A DNA stretch of 64,000 nucleotides from a virus (taxonomy: Duplodnaviria > Caudoviricetes). Each line of letters opens with the position of its first letter. Position 1 is the first letter of the stretch. Below the pieces are notes generated by a model. The model was given only the letters and a program-made list of their open reading frames with translations. It did no database searches and was not told where the DNA came from. The translations under genes and the position numbers were made by a program. Below, one piece after another: positions 29,248-59,498 of the stretch. The stretch spans positions 256,001 to 320,000 of the IMG/VR virus record IMGVR_UViG_3300035208_004923; one strand, written 5' to 3'.

Positions 29248-29906
29248 TGGAGGTGCGGGGATTCGCAAATGTTATCAATATGTTTCCATATTGTTCAGAC
29301 TATATCATCAACTGATTAATAACGATTAATCAGTGTCGGGCGCTTTATCCTGTTATTAAGGAAACTGTATTCCTCAGGTAGTCGTTGAACCTTCACAAAT
29401 TGTAATTTGCGCTTGGCTGCTGATTGGCATATTCAATTGAACTTAGCGTTCCAGCAATTCACCCGATTTATTTTTACTTGGTGTCACCACCAAGGGGGTC
29501 CAATTCCCATTTAAACCCCGGTCCTAGCAAACGAGCCAAAAGCTCTCTACGTGCGTGTGTTATTTTTGGTATTCGACAATTTCATCAATGAGAATAACCT
29601 GAAACTCGATGAATTGGTTTTAACAACAAAAAGTCATATACAAAATGATGTTGTTATCACATTAAGATATGTTACCAAATTGTTTGAAACCCACATATGA
29701 TTGCGTTAGGTAAATTGCAATCGAAGGTTGCTCTTTGCTTAATCTGATTAAGCAGCCATTAGCATTGACTCTCTTTCGAAAGTTGCTATTGAACGAAGTG
29801 CATTGTTAATAGTTTTGCCTATTATGGTTTTGTACGATATATGATTAGTACAATCATCAGCACGCGAACTTCGAACACTGAAAGCAGTCAAAAGCCGGTC
29901 ACCCCC
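29248..29906 (-). ncRNA. ssrA: tmRNA interrupted by a group I intron
   Basis: 5' GGGGGTGACCGGCTTTTGAC; 3' CACCTCC-A forming an acceptor stem with a G3.U pair; T-arm CGGGG-TT|CGAAT-CCCCG; tag ORF 29819-29748 GKTINNALRSIATFERESMLMAA*. Confidence 0.92.
29266..29513 (-). mobile_element. Group I intron (248 nt, no ORF) in the tmRNA T-loop
   Basis: P AATTGCTGGAA, Q AATCAGCAG, R GTTCAACGACTA, S GATATAGTC; P1 pairing GGGGTT/GACCCC with U.G at the splice site; terminal G. Confidence 0.9.
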
Positions 29907-52480: not shown

Positions 52481-53035
52481 TTATTTTTTAAGATTATTCA
52501 AATGTTCAACATCTTGAGGTGTTCCAGCAAAATTGATTTGTTCAAACCATGCAATTTTGTTGTCATCGGATATTAAATCGTCCCAGTATTCGTAAGCTTG
52601 GTCGAAATGAATATGGAAACTCATAACATGTTTTTGAATTTCTTCAGGCATTTCAGAAAACAAATATTCTTTTCCTTCAAATGCAAAAGTAAATTCATCT
52701 TTAACAAACCCTATTAATGTAGATAAACGTTGTTTACCGTCCATTACTTTATATACTTTTGTTCTGTCTTCAAATTCAGAAATAATAATGGTAAAATGTG
52801 GAATATCTCTGCCCATTAAAACAGAAGTAATCAATTCGCGTTTTTGTTCAATAGTCCAACAAAAAGGACGTTGCAAATTTTTTCCTTTTGTTGGAAGAAA
52901 AATATCAAAATCAAATTTGTGATTGTACCTTGGATTTACTAATTCTTTTAGCCATCCGTAATGCATTCCTTTTTGAATTTTTATCGGTAACTCTTTTTTA
53001 AAATCGGATAATTTCATATATTTTGTTTTTATCAA
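52481..53035 (-). CDS. DUF262 (ParB-like) domain protein
   Basis: LQRPFCW..LITSVL..IP, VMDGKQRL, FEQINF.GTP. Confidence 0.8.
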   Translation of the reverse strand: MIKTKYMKLSDFKKELPIKIQKGMHYGWLKELVNPRYNHKFDFDIFLPTKGKNLQRPFCWTIEQKRELITSVLMGRDIPHFTIIISEFEDRTKVYKVMDGKQRLSTLIGFVKDEFTFAFEGKEYLFSEMPEEIQKHVMSFHIHFDQAYEYWDDLISDDNKIAWFEQINFAGTPQDVEHLNNLKK

Positions 53036-53560: not shown

Positions 53561-54139
53561 TTATTTTTTAAGATTTTCTAAATGTTGAGCATCTTGTGGA
53601 GTTCCTGAAAAATTGATTTGCTCGAACCATGCAATTTTATCGGCGTCAGCAATCATTCGATTTGAATACTCATAAACAACATCAACAGTAAAATTGAAAC
53701 CTGCTATTTCATATTTTGCGTTATCGGCAAGATCTTTGAAAAAATAAATGTTATCATTTACTTCAATTGGAAATTCGTTATTGTAAAATTTTGTGATTGC
53801 AGTAAAACGTTGTTTACCGTCGATTATTTTAAATGTGCAAGCAGAACCGTCTTTTGTTCTATCACGATACTGAATCCATGAAATATTTGCAATTTTAATA
53901 CCTTTGAGAACTGAAATTATAAATTCTTGTTGTTGTGATAATGTCCATACATGATCTCGTTGAAGATTTTTGCCGATAGACGGTAAAAATACATCAGTAT
54001 CATAAACATCACCATAGTGATTTTCGGCAAGAAACGAAATTGATTCTGTTGCCATGCCTTTATGAATTTCAAAAGGTAATTTTTTTCGAACATCAAATAA
54101 ATCTAGTGGTTTCATATGTTTCAATTTTATTTTTATCAA
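53561..54139 (-). CDS. DUF262 domain protein (paralog)
   Basis: LQRDHVW..FIISVL, IIDGKQRF, FEQINFSGTP. Confidence 0.8.
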   Translation of the reverse strand: MIKIKLKHMKPLDLFDVRKKLPFEIHKGMATESISFLAENHYGDVYDTDVFLPSIGKNLQRDHVWTLSQQQEFIISVLKGIKIANISWIQYRDRTKDGSACTFKIIDGKQRFTAITKFYNNEFPIEVNDNIYFFKDLADNAKYEIAGFNFTVDVVYEYSNRMIADADKIAWFEQINFSGTPQDAQHLENLKK

Positions 54140-54859
54140 TTGTTAAAATCAAATATACAACATATTTGATGCAATAGCAATAGATTTACTGATTTTTTTC
54201 TAAAATAACGATATTTTTTGTCCAATTGCCGTATGACTGTGTGTATGATTGACGTTGTGCAATTTCAGCAACAAATACCCATCCTTCTTCAAATAATTTA
54301 TTTAACTCTATAACTTCAGTTTGATTAAAGTTACTAATAAGTACTGCTTTATTCTTTATTGCCATTTTATTACATTTTAAATACTAAATAACTACCATCA
54401 CGTTGGTCTGAATGCCATTTTGCTTCTTTCCAGCCAGCAGCAAGATATCTTTTTTCAAGTATACTCCATATATCACTACGTAAACCGCTTGGTATATCAA
54501 TAGAAATTGAATTTCCGTAATTTACTGTTGATTTTGATAGCATTCTATCAATAATTTCTTCATAACGATTTGCGGTTGCTTGCAATTCCTTTTTGAATGA
54601 TTCTGGTCCTATTGCCATATTTTATGAGTTTAAAAGTGAACATATTAAAACTACTTGAAAGCAACAAATATCTATCGGCATTAATCGTCTTTCAACTTTA
54701 TATAACGGTGCATCTAATCTCTTTGATGAAGCAACCGCATCACCTATGTTTGGAACTAAATAATGTTCGTACGTTAATACAACATTTTGTTTCAAATCAA
54801 CAACTGTGATTTTATAAATTGGGTTATTGTCAAGCATATTCTTAAATTTAAGTTAAAAA

Positions 54860-55180
54860 AAAACGGTTTCGATACGCAGCCTTGTATAAACCTCAAGAAT
54901 CGTACAATCAGAATTCTATCAAATTACTCAAGGATTTGAAAGACCTTTCGGCTTTATATCTTTTACCTTTAAAGCCCTATGCCTCGGTATTTTTACCGAT
55001 ACGGCTAATAGAAAGCAATAAGAGATTTGAGTATTGAAATTTAACGTTTGACCTTTAAGATTTGAACTTTTCAGTTTTTTTCCTAATATGGAGTTGCGCC
55101 CGAGAGCGCGACGTTAATTCTATCTTAACCTAGATAAAGAGGGATTGTGTTGTAGAGGTTTTCGCGTATGAAACCGTTTT
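54860..55180 (-). ncRNA. Putative ~320-nt structured RNA with internal 7-nt periodic repeats
   Basis: Ends pair (AAAACGGTTTC-ATACGC / GCGTAT-C-GAAACCGTTTT; AAACCTC/GAGGTTT); seven heptamers at 55026-55074. Confidence 0.65.
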
Positions 55181-55196
55181 ACTTTATATTATTCGA

Positions 55197-55823
55197 TTAA
55201 ACCTCGATAGAAGTTATTGCATTACTTTCGCTAAGAACCGCATCGACTTCACCTAAGAAATCTTGAAGTTCAGTTTCAAGAATTGCAATTTTGTCATCTA
55301 TGTTAAGTGGGTCAACATATTCATAACCGTTGTTTTCATCAAACATTTTTGACAATGATGTGATTTCTTCTGGCTTTGCTTTTGATTTATCACCGCCTAG
55401 TGAAGCATTAATGAATATTTCGCGTTTTTCAGCGATTTGCGCATTTTGCTTTTCAAGACTTGATTTTCCTTGACGAGATCTGTTTTTAAGATTGTCAATA
55501 AAGCTTGCAGTTAATGCAGCGTTACCTTTTGCTGTTATTGCGTCAGCAACACTCATTTCTTTGTTTGCAACTGTTACAATTGTTTTACTGTTAGATAAAA
55601 CGATTGCTGCTTTAATTGCATTTTTACGTGCGATTAAATCTTGAACAGATTGATATGATTTTTTCGCGTTTTCAACGAATTTTGCTTCCTCTGTATGTCC
55701 GTATACAAGTTTACCTTTTTGACGGATTCCTACTGGTTGGATTTCTGAAATTGCTTTCGCGATTCGTGAATCAATTGTTTTGATTTCTGTTAAAGCTCTG
55801 TGAATTGTTAATTTTGTAGCCAT
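55197..55823 (-). CDS. Coiled-coil protein, DIP1984-like family (probable start MATKL at 55823)
   Basis: TIHRALTEIK.ID.RI..., K.AI..SN.KT.V.V...MSVADAI, VDPL, EVD.VLSESNA.T.IEV. Confidence 0.6.
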   Translation of the reverse strand: MATKLTIHRALTEIKTIDSRIAKAISEIQPVGIRQKGKLVYGHTEEAKFVENAKKSYQSVQDLIARKNAIKAAIVLSNSKTIVTVANKEMSVADAITAKGNAALTASFIDNLKNRSRQGKSSLEKQNAQIAEKREIFINASLGGDKSKAKPEEITSLSKMFDENNGYEYVDPLNIDDKIAILETELQDFLGEVDAVLSESNAITSIEV

Positions 55824-55925
55824 GTTTAAGATTTTTAAGTTTTTTAAGTTTGAATTAATTTCAAATATATTATACATAAGATTTCATTAGTTTCATTTTA
55901 TGAATATATAAATCAAAATAATATT

Positions 55926-57533: not shown

Positions 57534-59498
57534 TTATTTTCGCCATTCTTTTTTGTTTAAGAATTTTTTTGTATTTTTGTTAGGTATATTTTCACGCGTA
57601 TTCAATTCAGCTTTGATTACTTCAGGATCGTATTGTTTATTTCCTATCCATACGTATCCACGATGATAATGACATGTTGGACATGACTTAAATTCTTTAA
57701 GCAATTTTTTAGTGTCCATTGCTTTAATTTCAGCAGGAACTTCAATATGACTTAAATCTTTAACAATACGTTTTCGTATTCCTGACATCCAGCCAACGCT
57801 TACTTTATCGAAAACAAGTCCTACGTGTGTTGTAACTTCATATGTTCCATCTTTACGTTTTTTTGAAATCCATCCTGTAAGATCTTCAACTCTATTATTC
57901 AATTTTGTTCTGTACCAAACAGGATCATTGATTTCATATTTTACAGGTCCATTTGATGATTTTAATGCACTTCTTTGCAATACAGGATCATTTGCTTTTC
58001 GCAATTCAAGAACTTTGAAATATTGGTCAAACGTTAAATGTTTTTCAGATATATCACGACCTTCATATTGTTTGACCAATTTTGATAAATGTTCCTTTGC
58101 AGATTCTTCCGCAACTTTAGTTTTCAAATAGTCAGAAACTAAATAAAAACGGTATTCTTCATTTGCAGTAAGTAAACGTTTGTTTGCATCTTTTACTCTA
58201 GAAACAACAATCTTGCGTTTATCTTTAAGCGTTTGTATTTGTTCATCAATTAATCGAACAGATTCTTCATTATCGGCAATTGAAATTTGCAAATCTTCAG
58301 TTCTTTTATGCAATTCTTTTCCCCATTTTGTTTTTGTTTGTTCAACAACTTTCATCAAAACAGAATGATCATTAACAATATGACCGAATAAAACCATTTC
58401 AAACAATGTGTTCAATGTTTTTCCAATAGCTTCGCCTTCAATTCCGAATGTTTTAATATCATCACCAGTGATTTTTAAATCAGTGATTTTTGCAACCATT
58501 TTGCCTGATTCCATCAAATCAAGAATTTCCTTTACGTTAGAAAAAACACTACCTAATTTGAAAGCATCTTTTGTTGTTTTAACCATTGCAGCAGCAATTA
58601 ATTCAGCAGCAATACCGTTTTCCATCAATTCGTGCATTTTAATTAAAGCAAGAATTTGTTTTTTAGTATCGTTATCGCATTTGAAACGATTAGCAGCAAT
58701 TTGTAGAATATCATTTTCAAAAAATAACAGCAAATACATCAAATCACCTAATGTTTTGAAATTTTCATCATGAATTGACATTGTTTTGTTGGTTTTGATT
58801 CCGAATGTTTCAAAAAAACCAATGTTGCATAATGTTTTAAATGCAATTTCAACAGAACCATGTTTGTTGATAATTTTTGTAAATTCCTCAATGATTCGTT
58901 CGCCAGTGATATCTTTAAGTAAATCAATATTTTTTGACATCATTGTTAAAGTTTCATCGGAAATTCGGAATTTGAAACGAGCAGCAAATTGAACGGCACG
59001 TACAATTCTTAGAGCATCATCAACAAAAGCATTTGGATTAGTTGCATGAATAATGCGATTAGTAATATCCTTAATACCATCAAATGGGTCAAGAATTGCA
59101 CCATCCATTGCAATTGCAATTGAGTTTATTGTAAAATCTCTACGGAATAAATCCTCACCGATTGATATGTTTTTGTTTGAAATGATTTCAAATCCTTTAT
59201 GACCAGCACCAATTTTTTTATCGGTACGGCAAACAGAAATATCGAAGTCATCAGCAATATTTGGATCCTTGAATTTAATTACGGCAAAAGATTCGCCAAC
59301 TAAATCGCATTTTCCATGTTTTTTCAAAATTTCGATTAAATCGGCAACATCAATACCTTCAACAACCAGGTCAATATCTTTAGATTGGGCTTTTGTAAAA
59401 AAATCCCTAACACAACCGCCTACGAGAAATATTTTTCCTTGTGATTCAATTTCTTGAATCCATTTGGTTGAATTTAATGTTTTTAATAGTTCCTTCAT
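57534..59498 (-). CDS. cca: CCA-adding enzyme / class II nucleotidyltransferase with an unrelated C-terminal extension
   Basis: VGGCVRD, KDIDL, DLFRRDFTINSIA, DPFDG..D, F.DDALRIVRAVQFAAR, ERI..E. Confidence 0.85.
   Translation of the reverse strand: MKELLKTLNSTKWIQEIESQGKIFLVGGCVRDFFTKAQSKDIDLVVEGIDVADLIEILKKHGKCDLVGESFAVIKFKDPNIADDFDISVCRTDKKIGAGHKGFEIISNKNISIGEDLFRRDFTINSIAIAMDGAILDPFDGIKDITNRIIHATNPNAFVDDALRIVRAVQFAARFKFRISDETLTMMSKNIDLLKDITGERIIEEFTKIINKHGSVEIAFKTLCNIGFFETFGIKTNKTMSIHDENFKTLGDLMYLLLFFENDILQIAANRFKCDNDTKKQILALIKMHELMENGIAAELIAAAMVKTTKDAFKLGSVFSNVKEILDLMESGKMVAKITDLKITGDDIKTFGIEGEAIGKTLNTLFEMVLFGHIVNDHSVLMKVVEQTKTKWGKELHKRTEDLQISIADNEESVRLIDEQIQTLKDKRKIVVSRVKDANKRLLTANEEYRFYLVSDYLKTKVAEESAKEHLSKLVKQYEGRDISEKHLTFDQYFKVLELRKANDPVLQRSALKSSNGPVKYEINDPVWYRTKLNNRVEDLTGWISKKRKDGTYEVTTHVGLVFDKVSVGWMSGIRKRIVKDLSHIEVPAEIKAMDTKKLLKEFKSCPTCHYHRGYVWIGNKQYDPEVIKAELNTRENIPNKNTKKFLNKKEWRK

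What the first reader, a model, noticed from the sequence alone, without database searches (positions are those of the whole stretch)
54860..55823. Coiled-coil gene followed by a closed ~320-nt RNA with a 7-nt periodic track
Seen: immediately after the stop, a long-range stem joins 55180-55164 to 54877-54860 and an inner stem pairs AAACCTC/GAGGTTT. Internal hairpins are GCGC-TCTCGG-GCGC and TCGGTA-AAAA-TACCGA. Seven in-register heptamers CTGAAAA GTTCAAA TCTTAAA GGTCAAA CGTTAAA TTTCAAT ACTCAAA (55074-55026) follow, and the element ends in a U-tract. Inference: a protein-RNA pair in which an oligomeric coiled-coil binds one heptamer per subunit (ribonucleoprotein, type III TA-like or autoregulatory).
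Basis: partly seen in the sequence, partly recalled or inferred. Interest (0 to 1): 0.7.

Follow-up and report, generated by a model that had tools for sequence, protein, structure and literature searches.

The report
Heptad-repeat knotted RNA beside helical-protein gene
A small all-helical protein gene and the knotted ~320-base RNA that starts 16 bases after its stop codon form a conserved two-part module found in hundreds of phages (including the classic phage T5) and in some bacterial chromosomes; it is almost entirely unannotated and its function is unknown.

Summary
Window 54860-55180 (- strand) is a real structured RNA. Its ends pair (P1). Inner helices P2 and P3 cross a pseudoknot and a hairpin P5. 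It carries exactly seven in-register heptads (consensus YUYAAAG) and about four more further on.

Covariation is strong: 91% of cells paired against 63% in shuffles and 33-50% in slid controls.

The gene before it (55197-55823, -) belongs to phrog_1491, the family of T5.085. It is labelled 'tail fiber', probably wrongly. It has a DUF6847-like helical fold and a predicted symmetric homodimer.

Linkage holds in both directions:
- The RNA follows the gene in 69 of 72 sources (68 of 71 related loci plus the window) and in 77 of 80 bacterial loci.
- The gene precedes the RNA in 57 of 59 loci found by an RNA pattern alone.

Rfam holds only an 86-nt 5' fragment (RAGATH-27). The RNA is unannotated in T5 and in most of 440 T5-like records.

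Some relatives carry a circularly permuted, YrlA-like tRNA-Ser(GCU) module. The window's RNA does not.

My best reading (about 50%) is a Ro/Y-RNA-like ribonucleoprotein tied to tRNA or RNA metabolism. Binding is not shown. A type III toxin-antitoxin reading is not supported.

This scan found the same module before on other DNA (e1-5654177); my tests agree with that note.

The parts
55869..55896 (-). sigma-70-like promoter candidate upstream of the gene
   Evidence: 10 of 12 consensus match. This is a consensus match only. No such site lies between the gene and the RNA.
55197..55823 (-). 208-aa all-helical protein gene (phrog_1491 / T5.085 family; DUF6847-like fold)
   Evidence: phrog_1491 E 1.1e-54. 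AlphaFold2 model pLDDT 92. Best solved match 3kdq, Z 10.1. The ATG at 55823 is chosen because the homologues begin there.
54860..55180 (-). whole structured RNA, from the first base of P1 to its last
   Evidence: fold z -4.2; alignments A1 and A3; covariation
55164..55180 (-). P1, 5' strand (closing stem)
   Evidence: pairs with 54860-54877; 9 of 10 aligned pairs show compensatory change, 94% paired
55155..55161 (-). P2, 5' strand, directly after the conserved GAAAA
   Evidence: pairs with 54888-54894; covaries within both subfamilies
55143..55148 (-). P3, 5' strand
   Evidence: pairs with 54904-54909, which is the loop of hairpin P5
55120..55137 (-). P4 hairpin with conserved GGUUA loop
   Evidence: present in the window's subfamily
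55096..55109 (-). variable hairpin; relatives carry a tRNA-like module or other inserts in this variable region
55025..55074 (-). heptad track 1: seven YUYAAAG units
   Evidence: ungapped in 34 of 34 aligned RNAs; nhmmer E 3e-9
54984..54999 (-). variable hairpin between the two tracks
   Evidence: not conserved
54945..54974 (-). heptad track 2: about four more AAAG units, the last partly in a small hairpin
54929..54938 (-). invariant AAAUCC and the 5' strand of the pseudoknot
   Evidence: pairs with 54880-54884; 99.4% paired, with AU, UA, CG and GC all seen
54896..54917 (-). P5 hairpin (54913-54917 with 54896-54900) whose loop holds the P3 3' strand (54904-54909)
54888..54894 (-). P2, 3' strand
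54877..54884 (-). pseudoknot 3' strand and invariant GGCUG
54860..54877 (-). P1, 3' strand
54855..54863 (-). U-tract after P1 (likely 3' end or terminator in this clade only)

Best explanation
The gene and the RNA are the two parts of one conserved module, most likely a ribonucleoprotein.

Proposed course of events:
1. One transcript, probably from the promoter-like site at 55869-55896, carries the 208-aa protein gene and, 16 nt after its stop codon, the RNA.
2. The RNA folds into a closed, multiply pseudoknotted core (P1, P2, P3, P5 and the AAAUCC/GGCUG pseudoknot).
3. This core holds out an A-rich array of fixed length: seven YUYAAAG heptads plus about four more.
4. The protein is a helical bundle that forms a symmetric dimer, with a conserved 'head' built from its N- and C-terminal segments. 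It is proposed to bind this RNA, with several dimers sitting on the repeated heptads.

By position (inside phage tRNA arrays, or beside a CCA-adding enzyme and an Rnl2 RNA ligase in the window's clade) and by the YrlA-like tRNA module in some members, the particle is proposed to work like a Ro/Y-RNA particle, in tRNA or RNA maintenance or mimicry.

Shown here: the RNA structure, the fixed heptad array, the two-way genetic linkage, and the wide distribution. Modelled only, not shown: the dimer.

Inferred: co-transcription, protein-RNA binding, and the link to tRNA.
For: RNA reality:
- Fold z -4.2.
- P1, P2 and the pseudoknot are 90.8% paired against 63% in shuffles and 33-50% when slid.
- The 3' domain in 69 sequences is 91.6% paired against 65%.
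- G-U pairs occur on this strand only, so the constraint is on RNA of the gene's strand.

Linkage:
- The closest homologues all have a 346-419-nt gap holding the RNA.
- Covariance model R1 hits 69 of 72 sources, once each, just after the gene.
- The RNA is present in 77 of 80 bacterial loci.
- In the reverse test, 57 of 59 RNA-first loci have the gene 264-566 nt upstream.
- The pair is single-copy in its own genome.

Heptads: seven units, ungapped, in 34 of 34 RNAs. AAAG motifs outnumber CTTT motifs in nearly every locus, typically 9-16 against 1-7, so most cannot be Watson-Crick paired within the RNA.

Protein:
- Homodimer ipSAE 0.63 against 0.00 for the best of 3 controls. This mark was reached by 20 of 30 proteins solved as pairs of one chain and by 1 of 23 solved as single chains. 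The runs agree in at least 98% of contacts and the partner's pLDDT is at least 89.
- The first 160 residues carry net charge +12 and the last 48 carry -12.
- The conserved residues 6-15 and 189-206 lie outside the predicted interface.

tRNA link:
- tRNA genes lie within 2.5 kb in 56 of 89 loci, often starting less than 100 nt after the RNA.
- A CCA-adding enzyme and an Rnl2 ligase are neighbours in the window's clade.
- A permuted tRNA-Ser-like module aligns to Rfam YrlA at 28-38 bits.
Against: - No direct evidence of binding exists, and no tool here models protein with RNA.
- The predicted oligomer is a closed dimer, which does not by itself explain a fixed count of seven.
- Thermodynamic folding does not mark the track as more unpaired than the rest (0.41 against 0.39).
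- The protein is near neutral overall (pI 5-9) and has no known RNA-binding domain.
- In the window's own 425-kb contig the tRNA array lies about 240 kb away.
- In most bacterial loci there are no tRNA genes nearby (8 of 80).
- The window's RNA lacks the tRNA-like module.
Confidence: 0.5

Rival explanations
1. A stand-alone stable structured RNA, like the large orphan phage RNAs ROOL and GOLLD. It is cut out of the mRNA or tRNA precursor and acts without the neighbouring protein. The fixed gene order would then reflect shared expression, or a protein that acts on the same pathway without binding the RNA.
For: - The RNA has an ornate, self-contained fold closed by P1.
- In many phages a tRNA gene starts a few bases after P1, so RNase P could release the RNA's 3' end.
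- The protein has no recognised RNA-binding domain.
Against: Near-obligate two-way linkage, with the same order and a spacing of 10-30 nt, holds across proteins only 30% identical and across distant bacterial phyla. Co-expression alone rarely keeps such linkage.
Confidence: 0.25
2. A cis-acting 3' untranslated element of the protein's own mRNA: a terminator, a stabiliser against 3' exonucleases, or an autoregulatory site that the protein binds to control its own level.
For: - The RNA starts 16 nt after the stop codon, with no promoter-like site between.
- In the window's clade P1 is followed by a U-tract.
Against: - A 230-470-nt multi-pseudoknot carrying tRNA-like inserts is far more than a terminator needs.
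- Most relatives lack the U-tract.
- In L097 and L169 the 3' part of the RNA persists with an unrelated ORF inserted and no such gene within 2.2 kb upstream.
Confidence: 0.12
3. A toxin-antitoxin, defence or counter-defence pair. One form is a protein toxin held in check by the RNA (type III-like). Another is an RNA decoy that soaks up nucleases or transferases acting on A-rich RNA or on tRNAs.
For: - It is a two-part protein-plus-RNA module found in both phages and chromosomes.
- In five Brevibacillus species it lies beside a complete AbiEi/AbiEii system.
- AbiEii-family toxin MenT3 modifies tRNA 3' ends and prefers tRNA-Ser (PMC7450476), and some family RNAs carry a capped tRNA-Ser-like module.
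- Repair enzymes are neighbours in the window's clade.
Against: - There is no PADLOC match.
- Repeats are 7 nt and lie after the gene, unlike type III systems.
- The pair sits at one syntenic site in 17 Lysinibacillus species.
- The window's RNA has no tRNA-like module.
- The AbiE adjacency is seen in one genus only.
Confidence: 0.1
4. Not an RNA at all: a chance palindrome, a miniature transposon with terminal inverted repeats, a DNA-level iteron array or origin, or a small protein gene.
For: - It has terminal inverted repeats of about 17 nt and AT-rich 7-nt repeats.
- An open frame without a start codon can be read by eye through part of it.
Against: - It always sits at the same place relative to one gene and is single-copy in the genome.
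- Compensatory changes include G-U pairs that work on one strand only.
- Conservation has a 7-nt period, not a 3-nt one.
- There is no ORF of 40 aa or more with a start codon on this strand.
Confidence: 0.01

Closest known systems
RAGATH-27 RNA motif (Rfam RF03100), an orphan candidate sRNA of 86 positions
   Same: It models the first 86 nt of this same RNA family: the P1 5' strand, GAAAA, the P2 and P3 5' strands and one hairpin. Relative L070 scores 82.2 bits (cut-off 76.1) exactly at the RNA's start, and L075 scores 56.6 bits. Both align with the window's RNA in A3.
   Different: The Rfam model stops before the heptad tracks, the pseudoknot and the 3' strands of P1-P3, so it treats as unpaired the parts that close the fold. 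The window's own RNA gives no match even at E 10, nor do the T5-like or bacterial versions. I found no function and no protein partner on record; full-text searches for the name returned nothing.
Ro60 (Rsr) with Y RNA, especially YrlA (Rfam RF02553; PMC4201824)
   Same: - The RNA gene lies next to its protein's gene.
- The RNA's ends pair to close the molecule.
- The build is modular, with a tRNA-like domain in the order T-arm, capped acceptor stem, D-arm.
- It occurs in both bacteria and phages and sits near RNA-repair genes.

The YrlA model aligns to the module of five relatives at 28-38 bits.
   Different: - There is no TROVE/Ro60 gene in the genome.
- The partner is a 208-aa helical dimer, not a ring.
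- All YrlA scores are below the cut-off of 69.
- The module here also keeps an anticodon arm with a GCU anticodon and is absent from the window's RNA.
- Y RNAs have no heptad array.
TRAP and HutP: proteins that bind arrays of short repeated RNA motifs (established knowledge, not tested here)
   Same: Short motifs are repeated at a fixed spacing on one RNA, as with the (G/U)AG triplets of TRAP or the UAG repeats spaced by four bases of HutP, which give a 7-nt period.
   Different: Those proteins are beta-rich ring oligomers that bind 5' leaders to control attenuation. Here the protein is helical, the predicted state is a dimer, and the array lies inside a knotted RNA after the gene. There is no homology.
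Large orphan phage-associated RNAs ROOL and GOLLD (PMC12286853)
   Same: They are ornate, conserved RNAs of unknown function, often beside tRNA genes in phages and prophages.
   Different: There is no Rfam match to either. This RNA is smaller (230-470 nt) and tied to one protein family. Self-assembly of this RNA was not tested.
Type III toxin-antitoxin systems (ToxIN, AbiQ)
   Same: A protein gene is paired with a repeat-bearing, A-rich non-coding RNA, on mobile elements and on chromosomes.
   Different: In those systems tandem repeats of about 35 nt precede the toxin gene and are cut by it. Here 7-nt units lie within a single knotted RNA after the gene, and the protein shows no known nuclease fold.

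Membership tests
RAGATH-27 (RF03100) | Score at or above Rfam's gathering cut-off (76.1 bits) | tested here: not met
   The window's RNA has no match at E up to 10. Relative L070 reaches 82.2 bits and L075 reaches 56.6 bits.
RAGATH-27 (RF03100) | Homology of the 5' 86 nt to RNAs that do pass the cut-off | tested here: met
   The window's RNA aligns with L070 and L075 over P1, GAAAA, P2 and P3 in A3, with covarying pairs.
phrog_1491 (T5.085 family) | Full-length profile match | tested here: met
   E 1.1e-54 over residues 1-208. T5.085 is named as the counterpart in the DT57C and T5 records.
DUF6847 (PF20935; structure 3kdq) | Pfam gathering score | tested here: not met
   The window's protein has no Pfam match. 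Five of 35 relatives give weak hits, best E 5.9e-4.
DUF6847 (PF20935; structure 3kdq) | Same fold as 3kdq | tested here: met
   Foldseek ranks it first, probability 0.99, E 0.02. VIA-align gives Z 10.1, rmsd 8.0 over 151 of 152 residues, with the next row at Z 8.0. For a helical bundle this supports likeness, not function.
Ro60/Y RNA (YrlA) | A TROVE-domain Ro60 gene in the genome | tested here: not met
   No PF05731 match in the window's assembly, which is 88.8% complete. Controls were found in 2 of 14 genomes.
Ro60/Y RNA (YrlA) | YrlA model at or above 69 bits; tRNA-like module present | tested here: not met
   The window has no match. Relatives score 28-38 bits. The window's RNA has a plain hairpin in the variable region where relatives carry the module.
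Type III toxin-antitoxin | Tandem RNA repeats of about 35 nt upstream of the toxin gene | tested here: not met
   Only 7-nt units were found, and they lie downstream of the gene.
Type III toxin-antitoxin | ToxN/AbiQ-type endoribonuclease fold | tested here: inconclusive
   It is not among the fold matches, and there is no PADLOC match. Absence from a list does not exclude it.
tmRNA | tRNA-like acceptor end with CCA, a tag reading frame, recognised by ARAGORN or Rfam | tested here: not met
   ARAGORN finds no tmRNA in the window or in 11 related loci. There is no Rfam match.
TRAP/HutP-type repeat-binding protein | Ring oligomer with one short RNA motif bound per subunit | not testable with these tools
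   Only a dimer was modelled. No protein-RNA modelling is available.

The most novel reading that the evidence does not exclude
A widespread, so far unrecognised ribonucleoprotein shared by bacteria and phages, working like Ro/Y RNA but built from different parts. Dimers of a DUF6847-like helical protein would load onto a fixed array of 7 + 4 heptads held out by a knotted RNA core. The particle (in some lineages armed with a capped tRNA-Ser mimic) would bind, protect or decoy tRNAs or tRNA-directed enzymes, for example end-modifying toxins of the AbiEii/MenT kind.
Probability: 0.3. Interest if true: 0.85.

Novelty: new variant of a known kind. Interest (0 to 1): 0.75.

Why it matters
The protein family is large: 3,636 clusters at 50% identity, all about 205-215 aa. 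It is present in 745 sequenced phages and in 221 bacterial species genomes. Yet the gene is mislabelled 'tail fiber', and the RNA is absent from the annotation of phage T5, one of the oldest model phages.

If the two parts form a particle, this adds a new class of RNA-protein machine to bacterial and phage RNA biology. It would have an unusual element, a fixed seven-fold heptad array, and in some lineages a permuted tRNA mimic.

It can be tested directly in T5 with E. coli and in Lysinibacillus. It may also help explain why tRNA-rich phages keep this pair inside their tRNA arrays.

Tried and rejected
- **Rfam.** A scan of the window at gathering and at E up to 10 found only a group I intron elsewhere and nothing on this RNA. 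Scans of bacterial versions also found nothing on it.
- **ARAGORN.** It found no tRNA or tmRNA here.
- **DNA similarity.** A search of the locus against sequenced phages gave no match. A single-sequence scan of viral contigs gave none either; only the alignment-based scan worked.
- **Paralogues.** Another 208-aa ORF at 643-1269 was suspected to be one, but the genome has a single match.
- **Phage K.** Its two abundant lncRNAs near tRNA genes (PMC9241854) were checked as possible expressed homologues. Neither the RNA profile nor the protein matches.
- **RNase P RNA.** The invariant AAAUCC...GGCUG pseudoknot recalls the P4 helix by eye. The strand order differs and Rfam gives no match, so I dropped this.
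- **Single-strandedness of the track.** Partition-function folding showed no difference from the rest of the RNA.
- **Literature.** Searches for RAGATH-27, DUF6847, T5.085 and T5 stable RNAs found nothing on this RNA or protein. The paper that first listed the RAGATH motifs is not held.
- **Full-length covariance model.** I did not try one, because the tool's stated limits (400 columns, about 6 minutes of calibration) rule out a model of this size. P2 and P3 were therefore tested by column scans within subfamilies.
- **Absent families.** ToxN/AbiQ and known RNA-binding folds did not appear in the fold searches or in PADLOC. That does not exclude them.

Full report
**What is in the window.** On the - strand an ORF runs from 55823 to 55197 (208 aa counted from the ATG where the homologues begin). 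Sixteen bases after its stop codon a 321-nt stretch begins (55180-54860), followed by nine T (54855-54863). No ORF of 40 aa or more with a start codon lies on this strand between 54838 and 55196.

The stretch folds at -85 kcal/mol, against -64.9 +/- 4.8 for dinucleotide shuffles (z -4.2).

**The RNA is real.** The three closest protein homologues (62-64% identity) come from unrelated metagenome contigs. Each is followed by a 346-419-nt gene-free gap, and these gaps align with the window.

I then collected 80 more loci from viral contigs with a protein profile and aligned 34 divergent RNAs (A3).
- On A3, the closing stem P1, the inner stem P2 and a pseudoknot form standard pairs in 90.8% of cells. 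Shuffles give 63.3% and structures slid by 1-3 columns give 33-50%.
- Nine of the ten P1 pairs show changes on both sides.
- The pseudoknot is 99.4% paired, with AU, UA, CG and GC all seen at its two variable positions.
- Within each of two subfamilies, P2 and a further helix P3 also covary.
- A hairpin P5 encloses the 3' strand of P3, and subfamily B has a 3-bp helix P6.
- A covariance model of the 81-nt 3' domain (R1) found one hit in 69 of 72 sources, always just after the gene on its strand. The window's hit is at 54869-54948. On that alignment 91.6% of cells pair against 65% in shuffles.
- G-U pairs are frequent. The constraint therefore acts on RNA of the gene's strand, not on DNA.

The fold is a closed, multiply knotted core. 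The 5' strands of P2 and P3 pair with 3' strands that lie between the two strands of the pseudoknot. The most conserved bases of the whole RNA are AAAUCC and GGCUG, which flank that pseudoknot.

**The heptads.** All 34 aligned RNAs carry exactly seven heptads with no gap.

| Heptad position | Commonest base(s) | Share |
|---|---|---|
| 1 | Y (U 44%, C 30%) | 74% |
| 2 | U | 86% |
| 3 | Y (U 44%, C 35%) | 79% |
| 4 | A | 100% |
| 5 | A | 97% |
| 6 | A | 72% |
| 7 | G | 68% |

About four more AAAG units follow after a variable hairpin. AAAG motifs outnumber CTTT motifs in nearly every locus (typically 9-16 against 1-7 in the 450 nt after the gene), so most cannot be paired within the RNA. Energy-based folding, however, does not mark the track as especially open.

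The region between P4 and the first track is variable. The window has a plain GC hairpin there.

**The tRNA-like module in relatives.** Several relatives carry a tRNA-like module in that variable region, in permuted order: anticodon arm (loop UUGCUAA), long variable arm, T-arm, an acceptor stem capped by a loop, then the D-arm.
- ARAGORN sees nothing in the native order.
- It calls tRNA-Ser(GCU) once the D-arm half is placed in front, in L011, L015, L017 and L044, and among mixed calls in L057.
- Rfam's YrlA model aligns its T-arm, capped acceptor and D-arm to the same module at 28-38 bits, below its cut-off of 69.

**The protein.**
- It matches phrog_1491 (E 1.1e-54) and no Pfam, NCBIfam or PADLOC family.
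- The AlphaFold2 model (pLDDT 92) is a bundle of five helices with a small sheet made from the N-terminal strand, a hairpin at residues 82-91 and the C-terminal strand.
- The only solved structure that stands out is 3kdq, a protein of unknown function that I take to represent DUF6847 (my attribution, from memory): Foldseek probability 0.99, VIA Z 10.1 over the whole chain, profile E 0.058.
- A two-copy fold gave ipSAE 0.63 against 0.00 for the best of three controls. This mark was reached by 20 of 30 proteins solved as pairs of one chain and by 1 of 23 solved as single chains. The runs agree in at least 98% of contacts and the partner's pLDDT is at least 89. The interface is symmetric. This supports self-association but does not show it.
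- The best-conserved residues (6-15 and 189-206) lie outside that interface.
- The first 160 residues carry net charge +12 and the last 48 carry -12.

The 'tail fiber protein' label carried by many records fits none of this, nor the gene's place among early genes and tRNA genes.

**Linkage and spread.** Profile searches found the RNA after the gene in essentially every locus that had enough downstream sequence.

The reverse test used a pattern drawn only from the RNA's 3' domain. It returned 80 viral loci. Of the 59 with at least 1 kb upstream, 57 have the gene 264-566 nt before the match on the same strand. The two exceptions (L097 and L169) share an unrelated ORF sitting inside the RNA's 5' half.

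- The protein occurs in 745 sequenced phages. T5-like phages are the majority, and the others include Vequintavirinae, Otagovirus, Bastillevirinae, Vibrio, Erwinia and Lactococcus phages.
- In T5 itself the gene is T5.085. The RNA lies at about NC_005859:43124-43494, between that gene and the promoter of T5.084. It carries no RNA annotation there or in most of 440 T5-like records.
- The RNA is visible by eye in Cronobacter phage GAP31, Pseudomonas phage phiPsa374 and Bacillus phage Deep Blue, inside or beside their tRNA arrays.
- The family has 3,636 clusters at 50% identity.
- It is not confined to phages: 221 bacterial species genomes encode it, and 77 of the 80 loci fetched have the RNA.
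- In 17 Lysinibacillus species the pair sits at one syntenic site, between an MFS transporter gene and a tRNA_U5-meth_tr family gene (13 of them show the latter within the stretch fetched). That suggests vertical inheritance.
- In five Brevibacillus species it lies beside a complete AbiEi/AbiEii system.

**Context.**
- In 56 of 89 related loci, tRNA genes lie within 2.5 kb, and often one starts a few bases after P1.
- In the window's own clade the neighbours are a CCA-adding enzyme (57534-59498 in the window), a peptide deformylase and a T4-type Rnl2 RNA ligase.
- The window lies on a 425-kb, 31% GC contig with almost all genes on one strand and 53 tRNA genes about 240 kb away. This is evidently a very large phage.

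**How it most likely works.** I commit to a ribonucleoprotein at about 50%. The steps are:
1. The gene and the RNA are transcribed together. A promoter-like site lies at 55869-55896 and none lies between them.
2. The RNA is released or remains as a stable 3' part.
3. Its knotted core presents the A-rich heptad array.
4. Dimers of the neighbouring protein load onto that array.

Two-way linkage across proteins only 30% identical is the pattern of RNA-protein partners such as Ro60 with Y RNA. That pair is also the closest working analogue: a closing stem, a modular tRNA-like domain, RNA-repair neighbours, and presence in both bacteria and phages (PMC4201824).

Still inferred are the binding itself, the stoichiometry and the cellular target. 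The rivals are a protein-independent stable RNA (25%), a cis-acting 3' element (12%) and a toxin-antitoxin or decoy role (10%).

The decoy idea has one concrete lead. AbiEii-family MenT3 extends tRNA 3' ends and prefers tRNA-Ser (PMC7450476), and some family RNAs carry a capped tRNA-Ser mimic. But the window's RNA lacks that module, and the AbiE adjacency is seen in one genus only.

A further untested lead is that the heptad has the length, and part of the consensus, of a tRNA T-loop.

**What is known.** Rfam's RAGATH-27 models only the first 86 nt of one subfamily. I found no function, no partner and no full-length description in the papers I could search. An earlier follow-up in this scan (e1-5654177) reached the same reading on another genome, and my tests agree with it.

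- the reverse-linkage test;
- the dimer model;
- the permuted tRNA-Ser/YrlA-like module;
- the syntenic Lysinibacillus locus.

**Verdict.** This is a real, widespread and nearly unannotated RNA-plus-protein module. It is a new variant among protein-associated structured RNAs, and its function is open.

Noticed in passing
window 29276-29523 (-): Group I intron, Rfam RF00028, 105.5 bits (cut-off 50), full length.
   Followed up: no
own contig G000:C1, 8.8-126 kb (outside the window): The contig has 53 tRNA genes, mostly at 47-73 kb. Two have anticodons UCA and CUA (suppressor-like), which hints at stop-codon recoding in this 425-kb phage.
   Followed up: no
L011:3138-3463, L015:3148-3481, L017, L044, L057, L009, L022: These members of the RNA family carry a circularly permuted tRNA-Ser(GCU)-like module with a capped acceptor stem. 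ARAGORN calls it tRNA-Ser in L011, L015, L017 and L044, and among mixed calls in L057, only after un-permuting; in L009 and L022 the module was seen by eye only. Rfam YrlA aligns below its cut-off in L011, L015, L017, L044 and L057. L015 even has ACCA after the acceptor 3' strand.
   Followed up: partly
L043:3112-3400 and L046:3106-3420: A long GAAAAG-type microsatellite flanked by inverted repeats lies between the gene and the RNA, pushing the RNA about 600 nt downstream.
   Followed up: no
L097:1830-2320 and L169 (same sequence): An ORF of unknown family ends inside the 5' half of the RNA. The 3' half is intact, and no phrog_1491 gene lies within 2.2 kb upstream.
   Followed up: partly
L238 (Lysinibacillus chromosome) and L236 (Brevibacillus chromosome): The pair is also chromosomal. 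In 17 Lysinibacillus species it sits at one syntenic site beside a tRNA_U5-meth_tr family gene. In five Brevibacillus species it lies beside AbiEi/AbiEii.
   Followed up: partly
L060:15-125, L019:3910-4017, L065/L070:2149-2321 (-), L085:4107-4174, L078:894-1050, L218:3519-3647: Other orphan Rfam motifs (drum, FuFi-1, int-alpA, RAGATH-36, skipping-rope) cluster in the same phage and bacterial loci. The skipping-rope RNA in L218 begins right after this RNA.
   Followed up: no
L092:5078-5633 (phage DT57C): The record annotates a separate 'rnaX, stable RNA with unknown functions' about 2 kb downstream of the pair. It is unrelated to this RNA by position.
   Followed up: no
window 52481-53035 and 53561-54139 (-): Two ORFs with similar sequence (184 and 192 aa) lie in tandem just downstream of the pair. 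The second matches GmrSD_N (PF03235, E 2.5e-11); the first was not scanned.
   Followed up: no
window 57534-59498 (-): The CCA-adding enzyme homologue has 654 aa. The tRNA nucleotidyltransferase match covers only residues 21-333, leaving a long C-terminal extension with no family match.
   Followed up: no
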